Source of the DNA: a virus
Taxonomy: Duplodnaviria > Caudoviricetes
DNA: 62,444 nucleotides
Virus record (IMG/VR): IMGVR_UViG_3300043640_000318
Location: 1-62,444 of that record
Direction: 5' to 3' (one strand)
A program made the position numbers and the translations under genes. The notes under the pieces were generated by a model. It was not told the DNA's origin, made no database searches, and saw only the letters and a list, made by a program, of their open reading frames with translations. Shown here piece after piece: positions 4,433 to 52,124 of the stretch. How positions within the stretch are numbered: the first letter of the stretch is position 1; the number at the start of each line of letters is the position of its first letter.

Positions 4433-7015
4433 CTAGATCGGTGCGCCCCAGCCGATCCGCTTGCTGATGCCGAAGCCGGACGTCATCCCGAGCACCTTCG
4501 ACCCGCTCGCCATCCCAGAGAACTCGATGACGATCTGCTTGCCGTCGTCGTGCACGTCGAAGGCCCCGTAGTTGTTGAACTTGGTGCTGCCAGTGGCGGG
4601 GTTGGGCGAGAACCCCTGGGACCAGGTGCCGTTGCCGTTGAAGGGCGTCTGATCGAGCGGAGAGCAACTGACCACCGGGAACCCGCCCGGCACATGCGAT
4701 CCGTCGTCGGCGGCCAGCACATGCAGGTCACCGTGGATGTAGAGCAGGTTGACGTGGTTGCTGGTGATGTAGGCGGCCAGCTCGGCCCGCTCAGTGTTGT
4801 AGGCGGTCCAGGTGTCGTCGCCCCCGAAGGTGGCGCTACCGCTCCACTCGTCCTCGTGGATCCAGACCTTGACGGGCTCCGAGCTGGTCAGCTGGGTCTT
4901 CAGCCAGGCCTTCTGGGCGGCTCCCAGCTTCGTCTTACCCGAGTTGTCGGTGTTGGCGATCGGGTCCATGTAGCTGCGGCCGTCGGTCATGATGAACCGG
5001 ACCCGGCCGATCACCCAGGTCTGGTAGATCCCGATGCCGTCGGCGGGCAGGTCGTAGGACGGGAAGAGCCTGCGATAGACCGCCTGCACCGCTGGGGCCG
5101 CCGGGCCGTTCTTGTCGGAATTCGAGATGCCGTTCTCGTGGTCGCTCCAGGTGTAGGCCAGCGGCATCGCGGCCCACAGGGCCTGCTGCCGGGACTGACC
5201 GATGGCGTTCAGCCAGGCGGCCAATGCCCACTGCTGGTCATTAACCCCGATGTCCTGATAATGCATGTCACCGGGATGGATGAACATCTGAGCCGTCCGG
5301 CCGTCAGGCGCGGTGTCCGTCCGGATGGAGTCGAAGGTAGTGGCGTTGGAGTCGGTGTCGGAACAACTCGCGACGGCGAACCTGAAGGGGTAGGGCGTCC
5401 CGGCCGCAGGGAAGGTCCTGAAGGTCCCCTTGTGGACGGTATCGAGGGTGTCATCGAGCTCGTAGCCGTAGTAGTAGACCGTGTTCGCGGTCAGGCCCGT
5501 GATGGTGACCATGCCGATGCCGTTGAAGTCCGGCGTCACGCTGGAGGAGTAGGCCGGACTGGACAGGTCAGAGCTGGTCGAGACGGCCACCCGCACCGAC
5601 GAGGTGAACTTGGTGACGAAGGAGATCTTGGCCTGGGTGTCGGTCACCCCTCCGCACAGGCGCCCGATGATCTGAGGCGGGGTGGCGATGCCATAGCCGA
5701 CCGGGGCGAAGGCGACCAGCTGGCCGATGCTTCCGCTGGCGGCCGGTGAGATCGTGGCCACCCTGGTGCCCGTCGAGCCGGTGGCGTAGATCGGCTGAGA
5801 GGCCACCTCCATGTCCGTGCTGGCCGACCCCGTCACGATCGCCTGAGCCTTGGCCTCGACCATGCTCACGGGCGGGGTGATGACCGGGGTGGTGACGCTG
5901 GAGATCGTACTGACGTAGAAGGCCAGCACGAGTGCCGACGGCGAGGCGATGGTGGTCGCCCCGGCGGTGATCGAGGTGGTGGTCCCGGCCGCGCCGGTGC
6001 CGTAGGAGTCCAGTGCTCTGGGATCGGCGCCGGTGATCCGGCCCATGATGATTCCGCCCCTGCCCGCTCCGGTGCTAGTGCGCCAGGTGTACATCGAGGG
6101 CTCGTCCTCGGCCGAGTCCACGTAGTGCCAGTAGACCGCCAGCATGCCGTTGGCGGTGTAGGAGTTCGGGACCAGATTCCACCCGGGTGGAATGGTGGTG
6201 GGCGTTGCGCCGCTGTTGCGATGGGTCACCTGGGCCCACAGGACATCGCCGTCGGCCATGGCGGCCGGAGGGCCCAATCTCATGATCGCCGAGTTGGAGA
6301 CCGTGACGGTGGAGAAGTCGTCGCTGGTGGTCTGCAACACCGGAGGATCGACGGTGACACCGGGGGCGATGGTGAACATGATGCCCTGGGCGCTGGTCCC
6401 GGCCGGGCTCACGGTCGCCGTGCGGCTTCCGGTGGTGCCCGAGGCGCTGAGGGTCTGGGTGGCGATCTCCAGGTAGGAGGTGGCCGAACCCGAGCTCATG
6501 GCGACGCCGACGGCCTCGTTCATCGAACCGGCCGGGGAGATCACCGGGGAAGAGGTGTCGGAGCGGTTGGAGACGTTGACGGCCACCAGGGTGGTGGCCT
6601 CTCCCACGACACTGACCGCCGGGTCGATGATGCTGGAGGTGCCGCTGGTGACCGCTGCTCCGATGGCGTCCAGCGGGGAGGTGCCCGAAGTGCCCGTGCT
6701 GCGGAAGATGACCACGCAGCCTCTGGCCCCACCGGCCGAGCTGACCCAGGTGTAGTCGGTCTCGGTCTCGATCGAGGCGTTGGGGATGTACTTCGAGAAG
6801 ATCCCGAAGGTGCCGCTGGTGCTGGCGCCCCCGGCTGTGGCCCACGCGTCGGGGATCGTGCTCCAGGTGGCGCTGGAGTTACGGGTGAACACGACCGCCC
6901 AGAGGGTGTCGCCGTCCTCGGTGTTGCCCGGCTTGGAGCCGATCAGAGTGCTGCTGTTGCTGACGGTGGCCGAGGTCAGGTCCCCCGCGCCGGTGAGTAC
7001 GACCGGTGCGTCCAT
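4433..7015 (-). CDS. virion/tail-associated protein with C-terminal FN3 + PhoD-like metallophosphoesterase
   Basis: Two repeated Thr/Ser-rich beta domains, then GLTANTVYYY, FAVASC, HPGDMHYQD, WSDHE, DGRSY, LGAAQKAWL, HGDLH. Confidence 0.8.
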   Translation of the reverse strand: MDAPVVLTGAGDLTSATVSNSSTLIGSKPGNTEDGDTLWAVVFTRNSSATWSTIPDAWATAGGASTSGTFGIFSKYIPNASIETETDYTWVSSAGGARGCVVIFRSTGTSGTSPLDAIGAAVTSGTSSIIDPAVSVVGEATTLVAVNVSNRSDTSSPVISPAGSMNEAVGVAMSSGSATSYLEIATQTLSASGTTGSRTATVSPAGTSAQGIMFTIAPGVTVDPPVLQTTSDDFSTVTVSNSAIMRLGPPAAMADGDVLWAQVTHRNSGATPTTIPPGWNLVPNSYTANGMLAVYWHYVDSAEDEPSMYTWRTSTGAGRGGIIMGRITGADPRALDSYGTGAAGTTTSITAGATTIASPSALVLAFYVSTISSVTTPVITPPVSMVEAKAQAIVTGSASTDMEVASQPIYATGSTGTRVATISPAASGSIGQLVAFAPVGYGIATPPQIIGRLCGGVTDTQAKISFVTKFTSSVRVAVSTSSDLSSPAYSSSVTPDFNGIGMVTITGLTANTVYYYGYELDDTLDTVHKGTFRTFPAAGTPYPFRFAVASCSDTDSNATTFDSIRTDTAPDGRTAQMFIHPGDMHYQDIGVNDQQWALAAWLNAIGQSRQQALWAAMPLAYTWSDHENGISNSDKNGPAAPAVQAVYRRLFPSYDLPADGIGIYQTWVIGRVRFIMTDGRSYMDPIANTDNSGKTKLGAAQKAWLKTQLTSSEPVKVWIHEDEWSGSATFGGDDTWTAYNTERAELAAYITSNHVNLLYIHGDLHVLAADDGSHVPGGFPVVSCSPLDQTPFNGNGTWSQGFSPNPATGSTKFNNYGAFDVHDDGKQIVIEFSGMASGSKVLGMTSGFGISKRIGWGAPI

Positions 7016-8525: not shown

Positions 8526-9314
8526 TCACTTGGCGGGCGGGACAGGTGCCTTCGGTGCGACGGCGGCCAGGATCTTGTCGAGCTTGGCTTCCAGTGCGGT
8601 GACTTTGGTCTCCAGCGTGCGAACGTGGGAGCCCACGTTCATCAGGATGGTGCTGGCCTGCCACATGGTGTCCTTGCCGTCCACCGGCCACGGGACCGGG
8701 CCGAGCTGCTCTTTCCAGACGTCGGGTGCGCTCACGTCATCCTCCACGAACATGGTCTTGGGCATCGGGCCCGGGTCGGTGTGGTCGTTCTCAGGGACGT
8801 GGCAATGGCCGTAGTGACCCGCCTTGCCCTTCCAGGTGGTGGCGTTACGGGAGTTGCCCGACCACGCGGGCCAGCCACCGGGCCAGGTGCCGGGGATCTT
8901 CCACCCGCGCATCCAGGCCATGAGCTTGTCCAGGCCCACACAGGGGGTCTCGGCGACGGTCATGTACTTCTTGCCGTTGCGGACGGCGCCGGGCGTGAAG
9001 AAGACCTCGACCTGGAGGCAGACGCTGCCCATCCGGTTGGTCTCGACTCCACCGGAAGTATTGGCGAGGGCTCGGGCCGATTGATTGGCGGGATAGAACT
9101 GTACGATCCGGCCGGTCCATGGATCCCACATCACATGCGGACAGAAATCCACGTTTTTCAGGTAATTAGCGATGTTGTCGAAAGCGGGCTGCTTACCGCC
9201 CGCGCCGAGGGCGTCCCAGGTGATGTGCCAGACGGCTCTTGGAGCGCCACCGGCCATCGAGCCGCCGTTGTTCTCGGGCTTGTGTTCGGCGCCCGGTATC
9301 CACAGATCAGACAT
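8526..9314 (-). CDS. endolysin, N-acetylmuramoyl-L-alanine amidase
   Basis: VWHIT, PHVMWDP, QVEV, GHCHVPENDHTDPG Zn-amidase motifs. Confidence 0.85.
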   Translation of the reverse strand: MSDLWIPGAEHKPENNGGSMAGGAPRAVWHITWDALGAGGKQPAFDNIANYLKNVDFCPHVMWDPWTGRIVQFYPANQSARALANTSGGVETNRMGSVCLQVEVFFTPGAVRNGKKYMTVAETPCVGLDKLMAWMRGWKIPGTWPGGWPAWSGNSRNATTWKGKAGHYGHCHVPENDHTDPGPMPKTMFVEDDVSAPDVWKEQLGPVPWPVDGKDTMWQASTILMNVGSHVRTLETKVTALEAKLDKILAAVAPKAPVPPAK

Positions 9315-11757: not shown

Positions 11758-12060
11758 ATGTCTTTGGACCAGATAGTTGCGGGGATCATGCGTGAGGCGC
11801 TGGCCCTGGAGCGAGGCCTGCACGACGCGGGACCTTGGTTCGTCGGTACCTATGACCGTTCGGTGCTCATTCCTGTCGAGCGGCGCATCGAAGAGGAAGT
11901 CCGCCGCATTCTGTTCGTCGGCGAGCTCAGCAAGATGACCGACTTCCCCGAGCTCGTTCTGTACTGCCGGAACGATCTCGTCTCTTATCGGGATGGGATG
12001 GCCATTCCGCCGGGCACATTCATGTGGAACATGGACTTCTCAGCAGACATTCTGGCCTAA
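11758..12060 (+). CDS. hypothetical protein
   Basis: ATG after RBS GAGGAGG. Confidence 0.7.
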   Translation: MSLDQIVAGIMREALALERGLHDAGPWFVGTYDRSVLIPVERRIEEEVRRILFVGELSKMTDFPELVLYCRNDLVSYRDGMAIPPGTFMWNMDFSADILA

Positions 12061-12069
12061 AGGACGTCT

Positions 12070-13623
12070 ATGTACTCCAGCCCCACGGGCCTCTATGAGT
12101 TCCAGGCCGACGGGGTCAGTGTGGCTTACCTGAACCGCAACGTGCTTGCGGCTTTCGACACCGGCCTCGGTAAGACCCATGTCGCGATGGCTCTGGCCGC
12201 CATGCTCTTCGAGGACGACGAGATCGACCTGTGCCTGGTGGTGGCGGAGAAGAACAAGATCCGCGAGTGGCACCAGGACTTCCGCGACTTCACCCGGATG
12301 GACTCTGTGATCTATCACGGGCCCGACCGGGTGAAGCGCGTCTCCAGCGGAGGAACCGGTGGTCCAGGTCGGCCCCGGGTCATCATCTCGACCTACGAGA
12401 CCATCCGCAACGACTGCGCGACCTTCCTCGGGCCAAGGAAGGTCAGGTCCGGCCCGTTCATGGAGCACCTCGACGGCCAGCGTGTCCTGGTGGTCTACGA
12501 CGAGCTCACCAAGCTGGCCACCCGGCGCAGCGCGCTCTACAAGGCGCACGAGTTCATGCTGAAGGAGCTGCGCCGGGCCGATCCCGGCCGGGTGCTCGGG
12601 CTCACCGCCAACCCGTTGACGACGGGCTGGGAGTCGACGTTCAACATGCTGCGGCTGGTCGATCCAGAGCGTATGCCGCCGGTCGGGGTGTTCAACGACA
12701 CCTATGTGCGCTCCCGGGATGACTATAGGCGTCCATATTATAACGACAAGGCCATTCCTCACTTTGTCGCTCTTTGCAGGCCTCTGATCATTCGTAAGCG
12801 CAAGACCGACCCCGACGTCATCGAGCAGTTCCCGAAAAAGGTCGAAGAAGTCGAAGTCATAGAAATGGCCGAAGACCAGCGAAAAATATACAAGCTGATC
12901 GAAGGTTTCGCCTGGGACGACAACGGCGACTACGTCGACATCCCCGGTCTGTGGACGGTGCTGCGCCAGTTCGCCGGTCACCCGGCCGCTCTGGTGGCGG
13001 CGGCCGAGAACGGCGGCTCAGAGCTCGCGTTGCAGCTCGTACAGGGCCTGGGAGTCCTGACCCTGAAGAAGACCTCCTCCGCCAAGACCCAGGCCCTCAT
13101 AGCGCTGCTGAGGAAGGTCAGTGACCAGGGCGACAAGGCACTGGTGTTCAGCTTCTTCGGCCAGACCGTACTGCCGGTACTGGCGGAAGAGCTGAGGCGT
13201 GAGCACTTCAAGGTGTTCGTCCATCACGGAGGGATGACCGAACGCGAGCAGTTCGAGATCCGGCAGGAGTTCAGGGCCTACGCCGGGCCCGCCGTCCTGC
13301 TGAGCTCGGACGCCGGGGCACGGGGCATCAACCTCCCCGAGGCCACCTACGTGATCGAGTACGAGAGCGCCCTAAGCTACTTCCTGCGCGACCAACGCTT
13401 CGGTAGGTCTCATCGGATCGACTCGCGAGCACCCTCCATCACCTGCACCACCATGGTGCTGGAGGGCACGCTCGAACGGGGCATCCTCGACATGGCCCTG
13501 AGCAGGAACGCCCAGCAGGATCAGCTTCTCGGGGACGTCGGCGCAGAGGGCTTCCTCACCGCCGTCGACCGGCGCCGAATGCTCAGCATCGCCCGAGCAC
13601 GCAAGAAGAACCGCGACACCTAA
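12070..13623 (+). CDS. SNF2-family helicase/ATPase
   Basis: LYEFQ, FDTGLGKT, ISTYETIR, VYDELT, LTANP, GARGINL, QRFGRSHR. Confidence 0.88.
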   Translation: MYSSPTGLYEFQADGVSVAYLNRNVLAAFDTGLGKTHVAMALAAMLFEDDEIDLCLVVAEKNKIREWHQDFRDFTRMDSVIYHGPDRVKRVSSGGTGGPGRPRVIISTYETIRNDCATFLGPRKVRSGPFMEHLDGQRVLVVYDELTKLATRRSALYKAHEFMLKELRRADPGRVLGLTANPLTTGWESTFNMLRLVDPERMPPVGVFNDTYVRSRDDYRRPYYNDKAIPHFVALCRPLIIRKRKTDPDVIEQFPKKVEEVEVIEMAEDQRKIYKLIEGFAWDDNGDYVDIPGLWTVLRQFAGHPAALVAAAENGGSELALQLVQGLGVLTLKKTSSAKTQALIALLRKVSDQGDKALVFSFFGQTVLPVLAEELRREHFKVFVHHGGMTEREQFEIRQEFRAYAGPAVLLSSDAGARGINLPEATYVIEYESALSYFLRDQRFGRSHRIDSRAPSITCTTMVLEGTLERGILDMALSRNAQQDQLLGDVGAEGFLTAVDRRRMLSIARARKKNRDT

Positions 13624-13975: not shown

Positions 13976-14244
13976 GCTCCGAGGAGAAGCGTTGCTCGCT
14001 CACCGAGCTGCTGGAGAGGGACTGCCACCACTGCCGGACCCCCGTGGCGGAGGCAGTCCCACTCGTCCCTGTGGTCCCGCACTTCGCCCCGAACTTCCAC
14101 CGTGCCGACAAGAGCGGCCCGTGGTTCCCGGCCGGGTACGGAGGTGAGTGCTCGGAGTGCGGCTCCCACTTCGAGGAAAACGACGTCATCCAGGCCGACG
14201 GCTCCGGCGGCTGGAGAGCGAGGGAGTGCTGTGGGGGCGGTTGA
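13972..14244 (+). CDS. small Cys-rich (Zn-binding) protein
   Basis: CHHC, CSECG, ECC; ATGA overlap. Confidence 0.65.
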   Translation: MSSEEKRCSLTELLERDCHHCRTPVAEAVPLVPVVPHFAPNFHRADKSGPWFPAGYGGECSECGSHFEENDVIQADGSGGWRARECCGGG

Positions 14245-14629
14245 CCGGCTGCGCGAGCTGCTGGACCGGCAGGTCTACCAGCCGGGTGAATGGTGCTGCG
14301 CCTATGGAGGTCTCATCTGGGAGGGCACCGTCGCCCGGATCTGTGACAAACAGCGGGGCCATACCGATGATCACGACTACCGGGGCATGTCCTTCATGGA
14401 CGCGAAGCCACTGGACATATGCAGCCACTGTGACCGGCAGGTGCGCCCTCAGGAAGCCAGTATCCAGCTCTTCGATCTCCACGTCCCCCTGTGCCATCCG
14501 AGCGATCCCCTGCTGCCGGACTGCTACCGGCGGGTGACGATCTACAAGGAACCTTTGGGAGCCCTGCGGCGCCTGGAAGATCAACCTCCCGGGATAACCG
14601 CCATCCAGCCGGGTACGGCTCTGACATGA
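14231..14629 (+). CDS. Cys/His-rich hypothetical protein
   Basis: GTG after AGGGAG; CD..RGH...H, CSHC, LCHP..CYR. Confidence 0.55.
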   Translation: MGAVDRLRELLDRQVYQPGEWCCAYGGLIWEGTVARICDKQRGHTDDHDYRGMSFMDAKPLDICSHCDRQVRPQEASIQLFDLHVPLCHPSDPLLPDCYRRVTIYKEPLGALRRLEDQPPGITAIQPGTALT

Positions 14630-14697
14630 GCATCTATGGCATTTTGATCATTATCGTGGTCATCCTCCTGGTCCTATTTGTCATTGGACGACTTTGA
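14626..14697 (+). CDS. 23-aa single-TM membrane peptide
   Basis: MSIYGILIIIVVILLVLFVIGRL; ATGA overlap with upstream stop. Confidence 0.55.
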   Translation: MSIYGILIIIVVILLVLFVIGRL

Positions 14698-14701
14698 GGG
14701 C

Positions 14702-14731
14702 TTGCCAAGGTTTCTGAGGCTGTGATAGCTT
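14702..14731 (+). promoter_or_regulatory. sigma70/HrdB-like promoter of the RNA cluster
   Basis: TTGCCA-N18-TAGCTT about 20 nt before the first tRNA-like element. Confidence 0.5.
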
Positions 14732-14752
14732 CCAGGTGTTGGGCAGCAAGGA

Positions 14753-14818
14753 CACAGAAGTGGTGTACGGGCACCCTCCGTCGAGGAGGTGGACCGGGTT
14801 CGATTCCCGGGTCTGTGG
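14753..14818 (+). ncRNA. tRNA-like RNA with truncated anticodon arm (loop GUCGA)
   Basis: CACAGA/TCTGTG acceptor, GGTG/CACC D-stem, CTCC-GTCGA-GGAG, T-arm CCGGG-TTCGATT-CCCGG. Confidence 0.6.
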
Positions 14819-14924
14819 AAAGCGGAAAGCAGTGAAATGGGCTGGCAGGCCCGGGAAGCTCGAAGCCGCTGGTGAAGGGAACGGCCTGCCAGCCATGTCT
14901 CCCAGATCTCCTTGCTCCCCGCGA

Positions 14925-14997
14925 ATCTCGGTAGCTCAATTGGTAGAGCACCCGTCTCCAAAGCGGGTTGTTCCAGGTTCGAGTCCTGGCCGGGGTG
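14925..14997 (+). tRNA. trnW: tRNA-Trp(CCA)
   Basis: Cloverleaf; CCCGT-CTCCAAA-GCGGG; GGTTCGAGTCC. Confidence 0.9.
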
Positions 14998-15208
14998 CGT
15001 AGGAACAGGATCATGCCTATGCCCTCACGGGTACGCACCCTGCGATGGCCCAACCCTGAACGGCATGGGGGGCGAGCCATCGGCCTCTGGCCCGGAGGTG
15101 TCTAGAAAAACGGTCCTTGCGCCGACTCGCGAGGAGGGCACGGTAGGTCGATGGTCAGGGCGTGCACCTCCACAAGCGCACGCCAGCAGCTGCTCAGCGA
15201 TCTATATC

Positions 15209-15295
15209 AGTGCGGTAGCTCAATGTAGAGCCCTTATGGAGCCGGTGTGGACCGGTAGGCTACGGGAGATCCAGGTTCGTACCCTGGTCGCACGC
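15209..15295 (+). ncRNA. tRNA-like RNA with extended anticodon arm
   Basis: GTGCGG/TCGCAC acceptor, D-arm GCTCAATGTAGAGC, T-arm CCAGG-TTCGTAC-CCTGG; anticodon region about 35 nt, capped by CCGGT-GTGG-ACCGG. Confidence 0.65.
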
Positions 15296-15412
15296 GGTTG
15301 GTAGGTAACGCTCTTTCTGGACCCGGCGGATGTGCACTGAAACCGGGCGAGGAAGCAGTCGAACCCCGCCTTGATGTCGCTCGGTCGGCTGTTCGCAGAC
15401 TGGGATGTCATC

Positions 15413-15482
15413 AGCGTCATAGCTCAATGGGCAGAGCTCCCACCACAATGGGTGAACCCGGGTTCGAATCCCGGTGGCGCAC
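15413..15482 (+). ncRNA. tRNA-like RNA (Val CAC-like) with 6-nt anticodon loop
   Basis: GCGTCA/TGGCGC, D-arm GCTCAATGGGCAGAGC, CCCA-CCACAA-TGGG, T-arm CCGGG-TTCGAAT-CCCGG. Confidence 0.65.
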
Positions 15483-15603
15483 GGTTGGAAGGGCAAGAGC
15501 CCCTGCAAGGTCGGTGGAGGTGCACCGAACCCGGCGGCGGAGGGGAAGGAACCCGACCTAGGCATCATGGGCTCCTGCGCGGGGCGCAGAAGTTCATGGT
15601 GGC

Positions 15604-15674
15604 AGCGAGATAGCTCATCAGGTCAGAGCACCCTCGGAAGGGGGAGGTGCCGGGTTCGAGTCCCGGTCTCGCAC
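15604..15674 (+). ncRNA. tRNA-like RNA with GGAA tetraloop in place of the anticodon loop
   Basis: GCGAGA/TCTCGC, D-arm GCTCATCAGGTCAGAGC, CCCTC-GGAA-GGGGG, T-arm CCGGG-TTCGAGT-CCCGG. Confidence 0.65.
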
Positions 15675-15793
15675 GCAGGGACAAGCCCTTCGGGGATGTG
15701 TCCTTCTTGATCCGAACCTGGGTCGCCCTTGAGCGCTTCTGCTCTCTGGGGGGAGAGGTAGTGGCCGCTCGGGCGGCTCAGGTTCGGATGCAA

Positions 15794-15866
15794 GCCTTTT
15801 AGGCTCTCGTGGGAGAGCGCCCGGCTGAAAACCGGGAGTGGCCTGGTTCGACTCCAGGGAGGGGCA
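15794..15866 (+). tRNA. trnF: tRNA-Phe(GAA)
   Basis: CCCGG-CTGAAAA-CCGGG; T-arm CCTGG-TTCGACT-CCAGG; GU-rich acceptor stem. Confidence 0.82.
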
Positions 15867-16052
15867 CGGGGGTAGCGTTCACGGTCTCAGAAATCTGAGT
15901 CGTGCGCTCGAAAGGTACAGTATGCGAATCCGATCCTGGATCACTTGCTCGGCTCGTCCTAGGAAACAGGCCGGTCCAGCCCAGAGGAGGAAGGCGGTGC
16001 CGAGGCCTTAGTCAGGGACTGGCGACTACCCTGAGCCCGCCCGATTTGATCT

Positions 16053-16124
16053 GCTGCACTAGCTCAATGGATAGAGCACCGGTTTACGGAACCGGGTGTC
16101 TGGGTTCGACTCCTGGGTGTAGCG
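16053..16124 (+). tRNA. trnR: tRNA-Arg(ACG)
   Basis: Cloverleaf; CCGGT-TTACGGA-ACCGG. Confidence 0.9.
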
Positions 16125-16250
16125 CGAGAGCTAGGGCCATGATCCGGATCGCGGCCCTTGGACCAGTCGTCCGACCCTCCTCGTCATTCTAGATTCTGAC
16201 GCTGGCAGGGCGGCCCTGGAAGGTCTTGGGAAACCGAGCCGCTCTCCCAA

Positions 16251-16324
16251 TGTCTGGTAGCTCAGTTGGTCAGAGCGCCGTCCTGATAAGACGGAGGTCG
16301 CTGGTTCGAACCCAGCTCAGACAA
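16251..16324 (+). tRNA. trnI: tRNA-Ile(GAT)
   Basis: Cloverleaf; CCGTC-CTGATAA-GACGG. Confidence 0.92.
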
Positions 16325-16325
16325 C

Positions 16326-16397
16326 GGCGCGGTTTCTCGTCGGACGGGCTTCAGCCTGCAAAGCTGATTGACTCGGGTTCGACTCCCGGCTGCGCTT
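16326..16397 (+). tRNA. trnC: tRNA-Cys(GCA)
   Basis: TCAGC-CTGCAAA-GCTGA, GGCGCGG/CTGCGCT acceptor, U discriminator; atypical D-arm. Confidence 0.8.
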
Positions 16398-16501
16398 CGA
16401 CAAATAAATATCTTTGCTCGGATTAACCCCAGGATGTGCCCGTTAGCCTGGTCACTTGGTCCGAGCGTCGGCGGGGTGGCGCACGCCCGTGGTCGGCACA
16501 A

Positions 16502-16574
16502 GGGCCTGTAGCTCCAATGGAAGAGCGCCTCTTTTGCAAGGAGGAAGTTCTCGGTTCGAATCCGAGTGGGTCCA
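16502..16574 (+). tRNA. trnA: tRNA-Ala(TGC)
   Basis: CCTCT-TTTGCAA-GGAGG; G3:U70 identity pair present. Confidence 0.92.
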
Positions 16575-16598
16575 CGGCGACAGTGCGCACTGTCGCAA

Positions 16599-16698
16599 GT
16601 CGAGACATGATCCGGTTCGACTCCGGTCGTGGGAAGCAGTAAGGGTGGCCACCCGACCTGTAGAGGGTTCGATTCCCGATAGGCGTCCATGTCTCGAC
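16599..16698 (+). ncRNA. unknown 100-nt RNA with two T-loop hairpins
   Basis: Closing helix GTCGAGACATG/CATGTCTCGAC; CCGG-TTCGACT-CCGG and GGG-TTCGATT-CCC inside. Confidence 0.6.
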
Positions 16699-16701
16699 GT
16701 T

Positions 16702-16773
16702 GCCGTGTTGGTCTAGTGGAATGACGCCTGATTCTCAGTCAGGAGATCGCGGGTTCGATCCCCGCACACGGTA
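16702..16773 (+). tRNA. trnE: tRNA-Glu(CTC)
   Basis: Cloverleaf; CCTGA-TTCTCAG-TCAGG. Confidence 0.9.
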
Positions 16774-17243
16774 CGGCAGGAGTGCTCCAGAACCCTTACC
16801 TGGAGCTCTGGCTCATGCGAGCCGGGATGCGGAAGCGTACGCGTTGCGGAGAAACGCATCCCGGGGTGGCCTAGGCCGTAGTAGCGGCACCTGCACTCTT
16901 TTCTGAACGCCGCACCTTGACCGAAAGGCGATCATGCCCCCGCGCAACCCCTGCCCCCTGCGCTGTTCGGGAGATGACCCCTGCGGCCTCGGCAACGGTC
17001 ACACTGCCGAGTGTGCCTGCGGTAGCCCCATCGCCTGCGGCTGCGCGCCGCTCCTCCAGCCTGCTGAAGACTGACCTGCCTCAGTGCCCTCGCGCTGGCC
17101 TCGTAGGTGCGAGATACCGCCTGCGCGCTGGCCTGGTAAACGCGACACGGCTTAGCTGTAATGCCTGCGCATGGGCTTCGTGATGCGACGTCACATCGCA
17201 CGTACATGTGACTGCAACGCATGCGACAGATGTCGATGGACCA

Positions 17244-17483
17244 TCAGTCCTCGACGACGGGCACATCTCCACTGAGGCTGAGGGAGACGAACTCGCCCAT
17301 GGCGCCGTTGCGCGGGATCTGGGTGCGGTAGCCGGACATGCTGACCCTCTCCAAGCCCATGTCCTTGGCGAGATCGAGCACGGCGGCGGCGTCCTCCAGG
17401 TACTTTTCGTTCGAGGACTTCAGCTCGGCCTCCTGCCTCTCGTCGAGTCCATCCGTGACGACAACATTTGCACTCCAGGTCAT
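17244..17483 (-). CDS. hypothetical protein
   Basis: ATG (MTWSANV) after RBS GAGAGGA. Confidence 0.65.
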   Translation of the reverse strand: MTWSANVVVTDGLDERQEAELKSSNEKYLEDAAAVLDLAKDMGLERVSMSGYRTQIPRNGAMGEFVSLSLSGDVPVVED

Positions 17484-17614
17484 GACGATTCCTCTCAAAA
17501 AGTAAATGCCTGCACGGAGGCCTTGTATCTATGGCACACGTGACAAGTGGACGTAGAGAGTAATACTTGCGCAGGGGTCTTTCCTGTGACCTGCGACCCC
17601 CTCCACAGACTCGC

Positions 17615-48216: not shown

Positions 48217-48244
48217 TTGACCGCCAAGGTTCCTGTGGTAGTGT
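48217..48244 (+). promoter_or_regulatory. promoter of Y RNA-Ro operon
   Basis: TTGACC-N16-TAGTGT with extended TG, 10 nt before Y RNA 1; CCAAGGTTCCT in spacer. Confidence 0.6.
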
Positions 48245-48254
48245 CGCTGACATC

Positions 48255-48342
48255 ACCTCCTCGGTGTGAACGGCAGACGGCTACTTCATTTCGATTAACT
48301 CCGAAACGCGAACGCCGTAGCCGGACTTGACCTCGGGGAGGT
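48255..48342 (+). ncRNA. Y RNA-like 1 (minimal)
   Basis: ACCTCCTCG/CGGGGAGGT closing stem; GGTGTGAA...CTACTTC...GACTTGACCTC. Confidence 0.75.
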
Positions 48343-48357
48343 ACAAAAACTTAAATT

Positions 48358-48433
48358 TCTCCGCTGGTGTGCATGTGACGGCTACTTCGATATGACGAAA
48401 AATGCGCCGTCGCGACTCTGATCTCAGCGGAGA
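48358..48433 (+). ncRNA. Y RNA-like 2 (minimal)
   Basis: TCTCCGCTG/CAGCGGAGA; GGTGTGCA...CTACTTC...GACTCTGATCTC. Confidence 0.75.
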
Positions 48434-48445
48434 CAAGCTTCAGCA

Positions 48446-48588
48446 CCTTCCCGGTGTGCAGATCACAGTTACTTCATTCGGAACTGATAGTCGCGGGTTC
48501 GAATCCCGTCGAGGGCTCCAGGGTCCTCGTAGCTCAGCCTGGTAGAGCGTCAGTCTTTGTACTGTGGTCGATTTTGATCTCGGGAGGG
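48446..48588 (+). ncRNA. yrlA: YrlA-type Y RNA with circularly permuted tRNA domain
   Basis: CCTTCCCG/CGGGAGGG; T-arm GCGGG-TTCGAAT-CCCGT, closed acceptor CGAGGGC..GTCCTCG, D-arm TAGCTCAGCCTGGTAGAGC; upstream of Ro60. Confidence 0.88.
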
Positions 48589-48602
48589 GACAACTTCAGA
48601 GC

Positions 48603-48732
48603 GTTCCTGGTGTGCAGGCGAGGGCTACTTCTTTCTGCAAAAAAGGATCTCCGGGTTCGACTCCCGGTCCAGCCCGTAAGGGTTGGGGCCAAGGCGGCGA
48701 TAGCTATCTCTCACCGACTTGACCTCAGGAAC
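48603..48732 (+). ncRNA. Y RNA-like 4 with T-arm and closed acceptor stem, degenerate D-arm
   Basis: GTTCCTG/CAGGAAC; CCGGG-TTCGACT-CCCGG; CCAGCCC-GTAA-GGGTTGG; shared motifs. Confidence 0.8.
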
Positions 48733-48743
48733 CCACTCTTGAC

Positions 48744-48778
48744 GAACTCCTCTCCCGTCCCCTCGGAGAGGAGTTTTT
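48744..48778 (+). terminator. terminator-like hairpin containing the Ro60 RBS
   Basis: GAACTCCTCTCC/GGAGAGGAGTTT followed by TT, ending 2 nt before ATG. Confidence 0.6.
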
Positions 48779-48779
48779 C

Positions 48780-50402
48780 ATGTCCAAGTTCAACCGCAAC
48801 GGCCCGAGCACCCGCCAGACCAACCCGGTGGTGAGCGTCAAGGCACCGCAGGCCCGTACCCACGGTGGCGCCCCGGCCTACGAGCGTGACGCCAAGGGCG
48901 AGCTGTTCATGCTCGCCATCAGCAACCTCGTGGGGGAGAAGACCTTCTACGAGAGCGCCGGTGAGCGGGACGACCGCTTCAGCGCGCTGGTCCACCAGGT
49001 CGCCCTCGACGACCCGAAGTGGCTGTTCAGCATGCTGAACTGGCTGCGCGGTGAGTCCAACATGCGCAGCGCGGCCCTGGTCGGCGCGGCCGAGATGGTC
49101 AAGGCACGGATCGACGCAGGTGTCAGCGGTAAGGACGCCCCGGAGGAAGGTGGCCGCAGCTACGACCGCATGGCCATCGACGCGGTCTGCCTGCGGGCGG
49201 ACGAGCCGGGTGAGCTGCTGGCCTACTGGATCGGCAAGTACGGCCGTCCGGTCCCGAAGCCGATCAAGCGTGGTCTCTCCGACGCTGCCAAGCGGCTCTA
49301 CAACGAGCGCAACCTCCTGAAGTACGACACCGCCACGAGCGCGTTCAGGTTCGGTGACGTCCTGGAGTTCGCCCGGCCGAAGCCGGTCGGCATCTCCCAG
49401 AGCAGGCTGTTCAAGTACGCCATCGAGAACCGGCACAAGCGCACCATCGACATGGTGGAGCTCGGCCTGCCGATGATCCAGGCGAACCACTTCCTGCGCA
49501 ACGCCGCCGCTCGTGACCCGAGGGCGCTGCTCGACTCCGACGCGCTGAAGGGCGCGGGGATGACCTGGGAGGACCTGCTGAGCCTGGCAGGCACCAAGGT
49601 GAGCAAGGCGGACCTGTGGGAGGCCATGGTCCCCGCCATGGGCTACATGGGCCTGCTGCGGAACCTGCGCAACTTCGATGAGGCGGGGATCTCCAACCAG
49701 GTCGTCAGGTACGTCGGCGGCCGTCTGGAGGACCCGGTGCAGGTCGCCGGATCCCGTCAGCTGCCGATGAGGTTCCTGTCGGCCTACCGGGCGGCTCCGA
49801 GCCTGAAGTGGGGTCCGTACCTGGAGGTCGCACTGGACGCGTGCCTGGGCAGCATCCCGGTCGTGAAGGGCCGCACGCTGGTCCTGATCGACACCTCGGC
49901 CTCCATGCAGGCCATGATGAGCGAGCGTTCCAAGCTCCAGATGTGGGACGCGGCGGTGGTCTTCGGGCTGGCACTGGCCCGCCGGTGTGAAAGCGCCGAC
50001 GTGGTCTCCTTCTCGGACAACTACTGGAACAGCAGCGAGGGCACCAAGGTCTTCCATCCGGCCAAGGGTGGCTCGCTGCTCAAAGACATCGACCGGTGGT
50101 CCCAGGACGGCTACAACATCTTCGGCGGGACCGAGACCGCCGGAGCGGTCAGGCGGCACTTCGCCGACCACGACCGGGTCATCATCCTCACCGACGAGCA
50201 GTCCACCAGCGGCAGTGATGTCGATGCCGCAGTCCCGGACAACAAGACCCTGATCACCTTCAACCTGGCTGGTTACAAGCGCGGCCACGCCCGTTCTGGC
50301 ACCGCTCACCGGATCACCATCGGTGGCCTGTCGGACGCCGGGTTCAAGCTGATCCCGATCCTGGAGAGCCGCTCCAAGGGCCTGTGGCCCTGGGAGCTGT
50401 AG
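48780..50402 (+). CDS. rsr: Ro60/Rsr TROVE-domain RNA-binding protein with vWA domain
   Basis: THGGAPAY, EKTFYE, LRGESNMRS, RADEPGE, LLKYD, MTWE, LLRNLRN, SRQLPMRF, LIDTSASM, GGTET, IILTDEQ. Confidence 0.95.
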   Translation: MSKFNRNGPSTRQTNPVVSVKAPQARTHGGAPAYERDAKGELFMLAISNLVGEKTFYESAGERDDRFSALVHQVALDDPKWLFSMLNWLRGESNMRSAALVGAAEMVKARIDAGVSGKDAPEEGGRSYDRMAIDAVCLRADEPGELLAYWIGKYGRPVPKPIKRGLSDAAKRLYNERNLLKYDTATSAFRFGDVLEFARPKPVGISQSRLFKYAIENRHKRTIDMVELGLPMIQANHFLRNAAARDPRALLDSDALKGAGMTWEDLLSLAGTKVSKADLWEAMVPAMGYMGLLRNLRNFDEAGISNQVVRYVGGRLEDPVQVAGSRQLPMRFLSAYRAAPSLKWGPYLEVALDACLGSIPVVKGRTLVLIDTSASMQAMMSERSKLQMWDAAVVFGLALARRCESADVVSFSDNYWNSSEGTKVFHPAKGGSLLKDIDRWSQDGYNIFGGTETAGAVRRHFADHDRVIILTDEQSTSGSDVDAAVPDNKTLITFNLAGYKRGHARSGTAHRITIGGLSDAGFKLIPILESRSKGLWPWEL

Positions 50403-51869: not shown

Positions 51870-52124
51870 GGCCGGAGTGTACGCCGTGAATTCCGCCCTC
51901 GCCGGACCACGGCACCGCCCTGATCTGCGCTGTGCGGTAATGCCCGCTCGAATGGCTACCGAGGAAGCAGGGGCGGTCACTCGCGGGCTCCATCTCCCCA
52001 GCCGACTGGGGCGGGACTCCGCAGAGTGGCTCCCAGCATAACGCCAGCGCCCCGCCCTCAGAGTTAACTGTAAGGACGGGGCCGACGGAATCGAACCGCC
52101 TCCGGGCGCCCGGTGCAGAAACAG

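What the first reader, a model, noticed from the sequence alone, without database searches (positions are those of the whole stretch)
14753..15674. Four tRNA-shaped RNAs with intact D/T arms but no 7-nt anticodon loop
Seen: elements at 14753, 15209, 15413 and 15604 keep T-arms, D-arms and 6-bp acceptor stems. Their anticodon loops are 5 nt (GUCGA), an extended arm capped by GUGG, 6 nt (CCACAA) and a GNRA tetraloop (GGAA). Three also have an A mismatch at 1:72. Damage confined to the anticodon arm in four unrelated sequences argues against random decay. Inference: non-decoding tRNA mimics, e.g. decoys for tRNA-targeting toxins or anticodon nucleases, Ro ligands, or RNase P/Z processing punctuation.
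Basis: partly seen in the sequence, partly recalled or inferred. Interest (0 to 1): 0.8.

Follow-up and report, generated by a model that had tools for sequence, protein, structure and literature searches.

The report
Phage tRNA look-alikes without anticodons
A soil phage's tRNA gene cluster holds four tRNA-derived genes that cannot read codons; at least one is kept almost unchanged in a related phage, so it is probably a working tRNA mimic and not just a dead gene.

Summary
The four elements are real and their anticodon regions are as described. They lie on the + strand among 7 normal tRNA genes, in a 62-kb fragment of an actinophage-like myovirus.

- **Detection:** only el3 (15413) and el4 (15604) pass Rfam tRNA. 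el1 (14753) and el2 (15209) also deviate in the D arm or T loop.
- **Relatedness:** they are not "unrelated". el2, el3 and el4 share leader, an unpaired A1, D arm and trailer, and the el2 and el3 spacers are homologous. They are tandem paralogues.
- **Stems:** across el2-el4 all 45 stem cells pair, with 4 pairs changed on both sides.
- **A related phage:** contigs from two runs of another study (helicase 78% identical in protein) carry el2 and most of el3 without any indel. el2 differs at 1 of 89 bases, its flanks at 8 of 61 (p=0.003). el3's visible 3' part is no better conserved than its spacer. el4 and the 5' half of el1 were not found there.
- **Ro60:** the phage encodes Ro60 with YrlA-like RNAs beside it, but the four elements lack Y-RNA hallmarks.

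Verdict: tRNA-gene derivatives that cannot decode. At least el2 is under selection. el1 may be a relic. Function is untested. This scan noted similar anticodon-less tRNA look-alikes before, on other DNA.

The parts
14702..14731 (+). Promoter-like stretch ahead of the array. It contains CCAAGGTTTCTGAGG at 14705-14719, followed by TAGCTT.
   Evidence: The motif CCAAGGTTYCTGNGG occurs exactly only here and at 48224, ahead of the Y-RNA/Ro60 locus. A similar CCAAGGATCCCTGGAG precedes the array of the related phage G001. The sigma-70 consensus scan did not call it, so the promoter role is inferred.
14752..14819 (+). el1: a tRNA-like element with a perfect T arm, a 6-bp acceptor, an atypical D hairpin and the 5-nt loop GUCGA.
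   Evidence: Fold (z=-1.16). There is no Rfam tRNA match; the best hit is mascRNA at 18.5 bits, below its cut-off of 42.5. Its closest tRNAs are Asp(GUC) and Glu(CUC). In the relative, only 14792 onward aligns.
14925..14998 (+). Canonical tRNA-Trp(CCA), co-linear with the odd elements.
   Evidence: 61.7 bits.
15209..15295 (+). el2: a tRNA-like element with a 6-bp acceptor (A1 opposite G72), a D stem with a short loop, a 35-nt extended arm in place of the anticodon arm (cap GUGG at 15247-15250) and the T loop UUCGUAC.
   Evidence: Fold (z=-0.23, so the fold alone is not significant). No Rfam match. It is wholly covered by a gap-free piece of the relative's contigs, with one listed change (15257 A>T, in an internal loop). 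Conservation against its flanks gives p=0.003.
15413..15482 (+). el3: a cloverleaf with all tRNA hallmarks (U8, A14, GG in the D loop, T loop UUCGAAU), but a 4-bp stem with the 6-nt loop CCACAA, and A1 opposite A72.
   Evidence: z=-2.16. From 15420 to its 3' end it is covered without gaps in the relative. Listed changes are 15453-15455 (variable loop) and 15475 (acceptor).
15604..15674 (+). el4: a cloverleaf with all tRNA hallmarks, but a 5-bp stem capped by GGAA, and A1 opposite A72.
   Evidence: z=-1.89. It was not found among the relative's listed pieces. A similar anticodon arm occurs in other IMG/VR phage contigs.
15794..16774 (+). Six canonical tRNA genes of the same array: Phe 15794, Arg 16053, Ile 16251, Cys 16326, Ala 16502, Glu 16702. 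The Ala-Glu spacer holds a two-T-arm element.

Best explanation
The four elements are derivatives of tRNA genes inside a phage tRNA operon. Small deletions, or in el2 an expansion, in the anticodon arm have made them unable to decode. el2, el3 and el4 are tandem paralogues of one ancestor that already had an unpaired first base. At least el2 is maintained by selection as a non-decoding tRNA-shaped RNA; el3 and el4 possibly are too. el1 may be only a decaying copy of an Asp/Glu-type tRNA.

Proposed mechanism, all steps inferred:
1. The array is transcribed as one precursor from the promoter-like site at about 14.7 kb.
2. The intact acceptor/T-arm minihelix lets host RNase P, RNase Z and the CCA-adding enzyme excise and finish the look-alikes as they do tRNAs. 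None of the 11 genes encodes CCA.
3. The missing anticodon loop and the 1:72 mismatch keep them off the ribosome.
4. The stable products then act through the tRNA body. My favoured guess is that they compete for, or soak up, a tRNA-binding factor that reads the acceptor end or elbow and not the anticodon, such as a host tRNA-directed defence enzyme.

Shown here: the structures, the paralogy, the pairing kept through two-sided changes, and the conservation of el2 in a relative. Not shown: transcription, processing, accumulation, any partner.
For: **Structures.** Reading and folds are.

**Paralogy.**
- Shared leader, A1, D arm and trailer.
- The el2 and el3 spacers match at the same offset (23 nt, z=5, 0 of 200 shuffles).
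- All 7 canonical tRNAs of the array have a standard 1:72 pair, so the mismatch is a shared oddity of the family.

**Structure kept after divergence.** In acceptor, D and T stems of el2-el4, 45 of 45 cells pair. Four pairs changed on both sides, reached by 9 of 500 shuffles. Slid controls pair at 27-47%.

**Relative phage.**
- Contigs of 17,948 and 49,905 nt come from two runs of another study. The second has the same length as the contig that carries the helicase homologue at 78% identity.
- el2 lies in a 214-nt piece with 13 changes and 0 gaps.
- Inside el2 there is 1 listed change in 89 nt, against 8 in 61 nt of its flanks (p=0.003). The aligned pieces average 10.7% divergence, giving P=5e-4 for 1 or fewer changes.
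- That rate is like tRNA-Phe (2 of 75) and tRNA-Ile (3-4 of 85).
- el3 from 15420 onward lies in a 152-nt piece with 0 gaps, so its 6-nt loop length is neither an assembly error nor recent.

**Excess over related arrays.** ARAGORN flags 2 of 9 calls here as '???', against 1 of 145 in the arrays of related phages (p=0.009).

**No overlapping gene.** No ORF of 110 aa or more with gene-like GC3 overlaps 14630-17614.

**Precedent.** M. smegmatis YrlA, a tRNA mimic, is cut by RNase P and receives CCA (PMC4201824, passages read).
Against: - **el3:** its visible 3' part is no better conserved than its spacer (4 of 31 against 10 of 57, p=0.76). Its 5' acceptor strand lies in a stretch the relative replaces with 71 other letters. 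So the 15475 T>C change in the 3' strand cannot be checked for compensation.
- **el4 and el1:** el4 and the 5' 40 nt of el1 were not found in the relative's listed pieces.
- **el1 as a relic:** it looks like a damaged Asp/Glu tRNA, and G001 has a normal tRNA-Glu(CUC) at the same first position.
- **A decay continuum exists:** related arrays also carry odd tRNA-like pieces and lone T arms. Seeing damage 'only' in the anticodon arm is partly ascertainment.
- **Weak folds:** the z-scores of el1 and el2 are unremarkable.
- **Limits of the el2 count:** differences within 31 letters of a piece's end are not listed by read laying, and 56 rows were not shown. The el2 count assumes the table is complete up to 16444.
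- **Other readings of el2:** a short recent recombination tract could mimic its conservation.
- **No expression or partner data.**
Confidence: 0.5

Rival explanations
1. All four are neutral relics: dead tRNA genes at an early stage of decay in an array that constantly gains and loses genes, with no role of their own.
For: - Arrays of related phages contain comparable oddities. Examples are a tRNA-like with a 3-nt loop in G001 (30.3 bits), a 4-nt loop element in G023, an element in G019 that ARAGORN reads with an 8-nt loop, and lone T arms.
- The window's own spacers hold T-arm remnants.
- el1 and el2 also deviate in the D and T loops.
- el4 and the 5' half of el1 were not found in the relative, and the relative's array is rearranged.
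- el3's visible part drifts like its spacer.
- el1 and el4 can each be derived from a normal tRNA by a 3-7-nt deletion in the 5' strand of the anticodon stem.
Against: - el2 shows 1 change in 89 nt against 8 in 61 nt of flank, with no indel.
- el2-el4 keep 45 of 45 stem pairs despite about 27-40% sequence divergence, with 4 two-sided changes. Meanwhile the duplicated spacers have diverged beyond alignment except for 23 nt.
- The shared unpaired A1 points to an ancestor that was already non-canonical.
Confidence: 0.3
2. They are processing or stabilising punctuation. The tRNA-shaped modules recruit RNase P and RNase Z to cut out or protect the roughly 120-nt structured spacers, which are the functional RNAs.
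For: - Unit spacing is fairly regular, mostly 172-204 nt from start to start (range 75-284).
- The spacer after the first tRNA is conserved with G001 (66% over 165 nt) and folds into the same three hairpins.
- From memory: mascRNA and mitochondrial tRNA punctuation work this way.
Against: - The spacers next to el2 and el3 are less conserved than el2 itself.
- Canonical tRNAs already provide such sites.
- No spacer matched an Rfam family.
Confidence: 0.1
3. They are ligands or substrates of the phage's own Ro60 (Rsr) protein: Y-RNA-like partners with normal tRNA topology.
For: - The window encodes a TROVE plus vWA protein at 48780-50402.
- The same promoter-like motif precedes both the array and the Ro60 locus.
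- Known Y RNAs mimic tRNAs, and D. radiodurans Yrn1 has a 6-nt 'anticodon' loop (PMC4201824, passage).
- el2's long bulged arm sits where YrlA carries its Ro-binding stem.
Against: - A YrlA-like core (43.6 bits) and four copies of G[CT]TACTTC lie directly upstream of the Ro60 gene. None lies in the array.
- No GNCGAA(N)G motif occurs in the array.
- No YrlA match occurs in the array at E<=10.
- The array lies 33 kb from the Ro60 gene.
- Phages with similar odd elements lack TROVE. G001, G019 and G023 are among the 21 of 23 related records without it, and 0 of 4 records G024-G027 have it.
Confidence: 0.07

Closest known systems
YrlA-type bacterial and phage Y RNAs (Rfam RF02553; Chen et al. 2014, PMC4201824)
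   Same: Non-decoding RNAs with tRNA-like D and T arms and an acceptor-like stem. They are found in actinobacteria and their phages. This same phage carries a YrlA-like RNA and Ro60.
   Different: YrlA is circularly permuted: its ends lie in the 'anticodon' stem. It carries GNCGAA(N)G near its 5' end and lies within 4 kb of the Ro60 gene. The four elements have normal tRNA topology, lack the motif, give no RF02553 match, and lie 33 kb away.
Deinococcus radiodurans Yrn1 Y RNA
   Same: A D / 'anticodon' / T order with a 5-bp stem and a 6-nt loop (PMC4201824, passage), like el3.
   Different: In Yrn1 the terminal stem continues into the long Ro-binding helix. Here the acceptor stems are not extended by the flanks (direct reading).
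mascRNA / MALAT1 tRNA-like module (Rfam RF01684)
   Same: A small cloverleaf without a working anticodon loop. From memory, it is cut out by RNase P and RNase Z. el1's best Rfam hit is this family.
   Different: It is eukaryotic. The score is 18.5 bits against a cut-off of 42.5, so this is resemblance only.
tRNA pseudogenes and fragments in prokaryotic and phage tRNA arrays ('Undet/pseudo' calls; PMC9897764 seen in a search listing only)
   Same: Derived from tRNA genes, unable to decode, and interspersed with live tRNAs.
   Different: el2 is conserved like a live tRNA, and the family keeps its stems through two-sided changes.
Irregular and allo-tRNA polycistrons from soil metatranscriptomes (Mukai et al. 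2017, as described in PMC7609411; passages)
   Same: [quoted passage not shown]
   Different: Allo-tRNAs have 8/4 or 9/3 acceptor/T stems and keep anticodon loops. Here the stems are 6(7)/5 and the loops are lost.
Earlier finding of this scan, e1-808919 (Patescibacteria)
   Same: Adjacent tRNA-like genes with intact acceptor and T arms but truncated anticodon loops, judged there to be kept by selection.
   Different: That was a cellular genome and a different lineage. I did not check it.

Membership tests
Canonical tRNA (Rfam RF00005) | Score at or above the family's gathering cut-off (29 bits) | tested here: inconclusive
   el3 scores 41.7 bits and el4 39.9 bits, so both pass. el1 and el2 give no match at E<=10.
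Canonical tRNA (Rfam RF00005) | A 5-bp anticodon stem with a 7-nt loop presenting an anticodon (U33, purine 37) | tested here: not met
   The loops are 5, 4 (on a 35-nt arm), 6 and 4 nt. My cloverleaf parser found a 7-nt solution only for el1, and only by opening the stem to 4 bp with a degenerate D arm.
Canonical tRNA (Rfam RF00005) | A paired 1:72 in elongator tRNAs | tested here: not met
   el2 has A opposite G; el3 and el4 have A opposite A. All 7 canonical tRNAs of the array have 7 standard acceptor pairs.
YrlA Y RNA (RF02553) | A permuted tRNA-like domain (T arm, acceptor-like hairpin, D arm) closed by a terminal stem | tested here: not met
   The order here is acceptor, D, arm, T, acceptor. 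No RF02553 match occurs in 14000-17500 at E<=10. The model does hit 48485-48552.
YrlA Y RNA (RF02553) | The GNCGAA(N)G motif near the 5' end | tested here: not met
   There are 0 occurrences in 14000-17600 on the + strand, out of 83 in the whole window.
YrlA Y RNA (RF02553) | Encoded within about 4 kb of the Ro60 gene on the same strand | tested here: not met
   Same strand, but about 33 kb away.
YrlA Y RNA (RF02553) | Bound by Ro60 | not testable with these tools
   Needs a pull-down.
tmRNA | A tRNA-like domain plus a tag reading frame | tested here: not met
   ARAGORN and Rfam report no tmRNA in the window.
Allo-tRNA | An 8/4 or 9/3 acceptor/T-stem geometry | tested here: not met
   Acceptor of 6 pairs (7 positions with a mismatch) and a 5-bp T stem.
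Neutral tRNA pseudogene | Evolves at the rate of surrounding non-functional DNA | tested here: inconclusive
   Not met for el2 (1 of 89 against 8 of 61, p=0.003). Met, as far as visible, for el3 (4 of 31 against 10 of 57). Not measurable for el1 and el4.

The most novel reading that the evidence does not exclude
Anticodon-less tRNA mimics are a recurrent, selected class of phage RNA. Two loop types seen here recur together in the tRNA arrays of an unrelated 463-kb phage: CCC-N-CACAA-GGG, and CCCYC capped by GGNA. The GGNA type also appears in three further phage records. They would be matured like tRNAs and serve as non-translating decoys that absorb host defence enzymes acting on the tRNA acceptor end or elbow. 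This would complement the phage's spare decoding tRNAs.
Probability: 0.12. Interest if true: 0.85.

Novelty: new variant of a known kind. Interest (0 to 1): 0.5.

Why it matters
Phage tRNA genes are now seen as weapons against host defences that cut or block tRNAs. A set of tRNA-shaped RNAs that cannot decode but are kept by selection would add a second, non-translational use of the tRNA fold in that conflict. It would also give meaning to the many 'undetermined' or 'pseudo' tRNA calls that annotation pipelines discard. The present case offers a concrete test object: el2, which is conserved like a live tRNA. It sits in a phage that also carries Ro60 and Y RNAs, so two kinds of tRNA mimic can be compared in one genome. 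If the elements prove to be relics, the locus still documents how phage tRNA arrays turn over.

Tried and rejected
**Searches for closer relatives**
- A single-protein search for relatives of the neighbouring helicase in IMG/VR found none.
- A profile search gave 32 viral loci and 68 metagenome loci. None was closer than about 50% over the whole protein. Only one (G001/L010) has a syntenic tRNA array.
- Cultured phages: the 2.4-kb array matched only at single-tRNA level. el4 alone gave three weak hits; one led to a Y-RNA array in Microbacterium phage Zooman, not to an el4 homologue. el2 gave no match.

**Pattern scans of IMG/VR**
- el3 strict pattern: 0 hits.
- el3 relaxed pattern: 2 hits, one of them a chance match in coding DNA.
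- el2 pattern: 0 hits.
- el2 against G001's element at L010:13207-13300: not significant overall (score 22-24 against a shuffle mean of 20; 21 of 300 shuffles reach it). A 16-nt hairpin is nearly shared.

**Other checks that gave nothing usable**
- Sequencing runs: no RNA holder listed, so nothing can be said on expression. Parts of the stretch without cover in runs X2-X4 are not evidence.
- RtcB: absent from the window. No other tRNA-handling enzyme appeared among 52 window ORFs scanned against Pfam.
- My own cloverleaf parser and the 'orphan T-arm' count were noisy. They also picked up long-arm tRNAs that ARAGORN missed, so they are used only qualitatively.
- One fold call failed on a size limit and was repeated with shorter stretches.

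**Readings considered and rejected**
- Intron-bearing tRNA for el2: an 18-nt excess is far too short for a bacterial group I intron, and there is no bulge-helix-bulge motif.
- Frameshift-suppressor tRNAs: those have 8-nt loops.
- Initiator-like origin: the D stem and the orientation of the anticodon-stem G:C pairs do not fit.
- AlaRS-chargeable minihelices: none has G3:U70, whereas the array's tRNA-Ala does.
- Prophage attachment-site remnants: these are full cloverleaves in a myovirus with no integrase seen.

**Literature**
- Searches found no paper describing anticodon-loop-truncated tRNA-like genes in phage tRNA arrays.
- The supplementary tables of PMC4201824, which list phage YrlA RNAs, were not opened.
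Full report
**Setting**

The window is a 62,444-base IMG/VR virus record, estimated 40% complete, with 60-69% G+C. It encodes a tail sheath, baseplate and other myovirus proteins. The sheath is about 31% identical to those of Mycobacterium phages Phabba and Myrna and related Gordonia and Rhodococcus phages. It is therefore a distant actinophage-like myovirus.

Downstream of an SNF2 helicase (12070-13623) and a few small ORFs lies a + strand tRNA array. ARAGORN finds Trp, Phe, Arg, Ile, Cys, Ala and Glu, plus two 'tRNA-???' at 15413 and 15604. Rfam tRNA is passed by the same nine. No ORF of 110 aa or more with gene-like third-position G+C overlaps 14630-17614.

**The observation**

| Element | Stem | Loop or cap |
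|---|---|---|
| el1 | CCUCC/GGAGG | GUCGA |
| el2 | 35-nt bulged arm | GUGG |
| el3 | CCCA/UGGG | CCACAA |
| el4 | CCCUC/GGGGG | GGAA |

- Three have A1 unpaired: A opposite G in el2, A opposite A in el3 and el4. All seven canonical tRNAs of the array have seven standard acceptor pairs.
- el3 and el4 keep every tRNA hallmark outside the anticodon arm: U8, A14, GG in the D loop, and a UUCGA T loop on a 5-bp stem. They score 41.7 and 39.9 bits.
el1 has a non-canonical D hairpin and an extra base before the 3' acceptor strand. el2 has a 6-nt D loop with one G, and a T loop with U where A58 would be.
- Neither el1 nor el2 gives an Rfam tRNA match at E<=10, even in a 571-nt search. el1's best hit is mascRNA at 18.5 bits, far below its cut-off.
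- Fold z-scores are modest: -1.16, -0.23, -2.16 and -1.89.

**They are related, not independent**

- el2, el3 and el4 share the leader (ATC before A1), the D arm and the trailer (A/G, then CG).
- The spacers after el2 and el3 share a 23-nt block at the same offset (z=5; 0 of 200 shuffles). So the unit 'element plus spacer' was duplicated in tandem.
- el3 and el4 are 72-73% identical over their full length. el1 matches el4 at 80% over 41 nt.
- On an alignment of el2-el4, with the anticodon arm left out, all 45 stem cells pair. Four pairs show changes on both sides, reached by 9 of 500 shuffles. Slid controls pair at only 27-47%.
- The unpaired A1 is shared and is absent from the array's live tRNAs. 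The common ancestor was therefore probably already non-canonical, and pairing has been kept while the duplicated spacers drifted almost beyond recognition.

**Origin**

- el1's segment from D arm to T arm aligns best with tRNA-Asp(GUC) of G019 and tRNA-Glu(CUC) of G001. It shares the AGUGG D-loop signature and nearly the whole T arm with Glu tRNAs.
- In G001 the first gene after the conserved promoter-like site is a normal tRNA-Glu(CUC).
- el4's arm aligns without gaps to the anticodon arm of a tRNA-Ala(CGC). This suggests that three bases of the 5' stem strand were lost and the former loop re-paired.
- The elements are thus tRNA genes altered by small deletions, or in el2 by an expansion.

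**Relatives**

- No close relative is in IMG/VR, the metagenome contigs or the cultured-phage collection.
- The nearest syntenic array is in G001 (helicase 50% identical). It has a tRNA-like with a 3-nt loop (30.3 bits), several lone T arms, and a spacer homologous to 14999-15102 that folds into the same three hairpins.
- Larger arrays in more distant relatives (25-39 tRNA matches each) also carry occasional oddities. ARAGORN flags only 1 of 145 calls there as '???', against 2 of 9 here (p=0.009).

**The decisive comparison**

It came from public sequencing runs.

- Run X1 holds the window's sequence unchanged and may be its source.
- Runs X3 and X4, from another study, hold contigs of a related phage (17,948 and 49,905 nt). 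The latter has the same length as the contig carrying the 78%-identical helicase homologue.
- At 80% or more identity, these pieces of the window align:

| Window piece | Changes | Gaps |
|---|---|---|
| 14792-14920 | 11 | 1 |
| 15072-15141 | 13 | 0 |
| 15139-15352 | 13 | 0 |
| 15420-15571 | 18 | 0 |
| tRNA-Phe | 2 | 0 |
| tRNA-Ile | 3-4 | 0 |
| 16326-16836 | 60-61 | 3 |

- el2 lies wholly inside a gap-free piece. Its only listed change (15257 A>T) falls in an internal loop.
- el2's 89 nt carry 1 change; the 61 flanking nt within the listed zone carry 8 (p=0.003). Against the 10.7% mean of the aligned pieces, P=5e-4. This rate is as low as in live tRNAs.
- el3 from its D arm to its 3' end is also gap-free, so its 6-nt loop is neither an assembly error nor recent.
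- Limits of the table: changes within 31 letters of a piece's end are not listed, so up to 4 changes could lie in 15420-15450. In the visible part el3 has 4 changes in 31 nt: three in the variable loop and one at acceptor position 66. Its spacer has 10 in 57 (p=0.76).
- The relative replaces 15353-15419 with 71 other letters, so el3's 5' acceptor strand could not be read.
- el4 and the first 40 nt of el1 are not among the relative's listed pieces. The array is rearranged there: the stretches holding tRNA-Trp and tRNA-Arg are replaced by 73 and 175 other letters.
- Caveat: the counts assume that the difference table, cut at 40 rows, is complete up to 16444. Its row tallies per piece support this.

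**Ro60 context**

- The window encodes a TROVE plus vWA protein (48780-50402).
- The 550-nt gap upstream holds a YrlA-like core (48485-48552, 43.6 bits, below the cut-off of 69), a second T arm, and four copies of G[CT]TACTTC.
- The motif CCAAGGTTYCTGNGG occurs exactly only ahead of this locus and ahead of the tRNA array. That hints at common regulation, although the sigma-70 scan called neither site.
- The four elements have none of the Y-RNA marks. There is no RF02553 match, no GNCGAA(N)G (0 of the 83 occurrences in the window lie in the array) and no G[CT]TACTTC. Their topology is normal, and they lie 33 kb away.
- Phages with comparable odd elements mostly lack TROVE: 2 of 23 related records have it, not G001, G019 or G023, and 0 of 4 further records have it.

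**Recurrence elsewhere (weak)**

- A strict pattern for el4's arm found 5 IMG/VR loci.
- Three near-identical contigs and a fourth carry a tRNA-like with a roughly 48-nt D-loop insert and the arm CCCUC-GGCA-G(G/A)GGG (30-34 bits).
- A 463-kb phage record with 70 tRNA matches has both an el4-like arm (CCCCC-GGCAA-GGGGG, 48.5 bits) and an el3-like one (CCC-ACACAA-GGG, 57.2 bits) about 340 nt apart.
- Overall identities to el3 and el4 are 70-75%, only slightly above those to ordinary tRNAs at 53-69%. This is a lead, not proof of a family.

**Interpretation**

- The elements cannot decode.
- For el2 the evidence favours purifying selection on an RNA of tRNA-like shape.
- For the el2-el4 family, kept pairing through two-sided changes points the same way.
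- For el1, decay of an Asp/Glu-type tRNA is the simpler reading.
- The spacers next to el2 and el3 are less conserved than el2, which argues against a mere punctuation role.
- An anticodon-nuclease decoy is implausible without an anticodon loop.

I therefore favour matured, stable, non-translating tRNA mimics that act through the acceptor end or elbow. All of this is inference:
- The intact minihelix suggests processing by RNase P, RNase Z and the CCA-adding enzyme, as shown for M. smegmatis YrlA (PMC4201824, passages read).
- The 1:72 mismatch would disfavour EF-Tu binding (recalled from initiator-tRNA biology).
- Candidate targets are recalled examples, not tested here: tRNA-end nucleotidyltransferase toxins and CCA-pyrophosphorylating toxins of actinobacteria.

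**Literature**

- Searches found no description of such elements in phage arrays.
- A review (PMC7609411, passages) mentions irregular tRNA polycistrons in soil metatranscriptomes, with a different geometry.
- This scan noted anticodon-less tRNA look-alikes before, in a Patescibacteria genome (e1-808919). It also noted YrlA-type mimics inside phage tRNA arrays (e1-5975302).

Noticed in passing
window 48228-50402: A phage Ro60 (TROVE plus vWA) gene is preceded by a 550-nt gene-free stretch. It holds a YrlA-like permuted tRNA core (48485-48552, 43.6 bits, below cut-off), a second T arm (48651-48667) and four copies of G[CT]TACTTC (48280, 48381, 48468, 48624). These are probably several tandem Y RNAs whose Ro-binding motif differs from the published GNCGAA(N)G. 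A similar ...TTACTTCCTTCTGATAAAAGG... plus T arm lies beside the TROVE gene of G015.
   Followed up: partly
window 14705-14719 and 48224-48238; L010 about 12012-12030: The motif CCAAGGTTYCTGNGG occurs exactly only ahead of the tRNA array and ahead of the Y-RNA/Ro60 locus. A similar motif precedes G001's array. It is a possible phage-specific promoter class linking the two RNA loci.
   Followed up: partly
window 16599-16697: Between tRNA-Ala and tRNA-Glu, an 11-bp stem encloses two T-arm-like hairpins (16611, 16663) and a small GC hairpin (fold z=-2.7). 'Two T arms inside a closing stem' also appears in G019 (L075 about 8940-9035, minus strand) and G023 (L077 about 5613-5700, minus strand). No Rfam match.
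   Followed up: partly
window 14999-15110; L010:12169-12280: The spacer after the first canonical tRNA is conserved between the window and G001 (66% over 165 nt including the tRNA's 3' part). It folds into the same three hairpins, with changed but still pairing stems. Part of it (15072-15141) also occurs, displaced, in the relative from runs X3 and X4.
   Followed up: partly
L150:338-449, L152:337-449 (also L149, L151): tRNA-like genes in other IMG/VR phage contigs with a 47-49-nt insertion in the D loop and a GGCA tetraloop in place of the anticodon loop (Rfam tRNA 30-34 bits). In L150 the element sits directly ahead of tRNA-Met, tRNA-Pro and tRNA-Asn.
   Followed up: partly
L153:380-449 and 724-791 (G027, a 463-kb virus record): A very large phage record with 70 tRNA matches carries two short-loop tRNA-likes whose arms resemble el4 and el3.
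   Followed up: partly
L160 (Microbacterium phage Zooman OK040793, record 95.5-97.1 kb): After four annotated tRNAs lie about seven unannotated tandem units. Each begins with a motif like GAGCCGAAG ... CGGTTATC, which fits GNCGAA(N)G. Two have sub-threshold YrlA cores, and one annotated tRNA-Ala scores better as a tmRNA-like or viral tRNA-like structure. This is a likely Y-RNA array in a cultured phage.
   Followed up: partly
L010:13207-13300: G001 has a 7-bp-acceptor tRNA-like element with a D arm, a degenerate T-like hairpin in the anticodon position, and a hairpin GCCGG-GUGUGA-CCGGU in the T position. That hairpin nearly matches the apical hairpin of el2. The overall alignment to el2 is not significant.
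   Followed up: partly
window 52084-52100 (minus strand): A lone T-arm-like hairpin (GGCGG-TTCGATT-CCGTC) in an intergenic gap, with a weak tRNA-Sec-like Rfam hit (19.4 bits).
   Followed up: no
window 14629-14697; L010 11927-12000: A conserved tiny hydrophobic ORF (about 22-24 aa) lies just ahead of the array's promoter-like site in both the window and G001.
   Followed up: no
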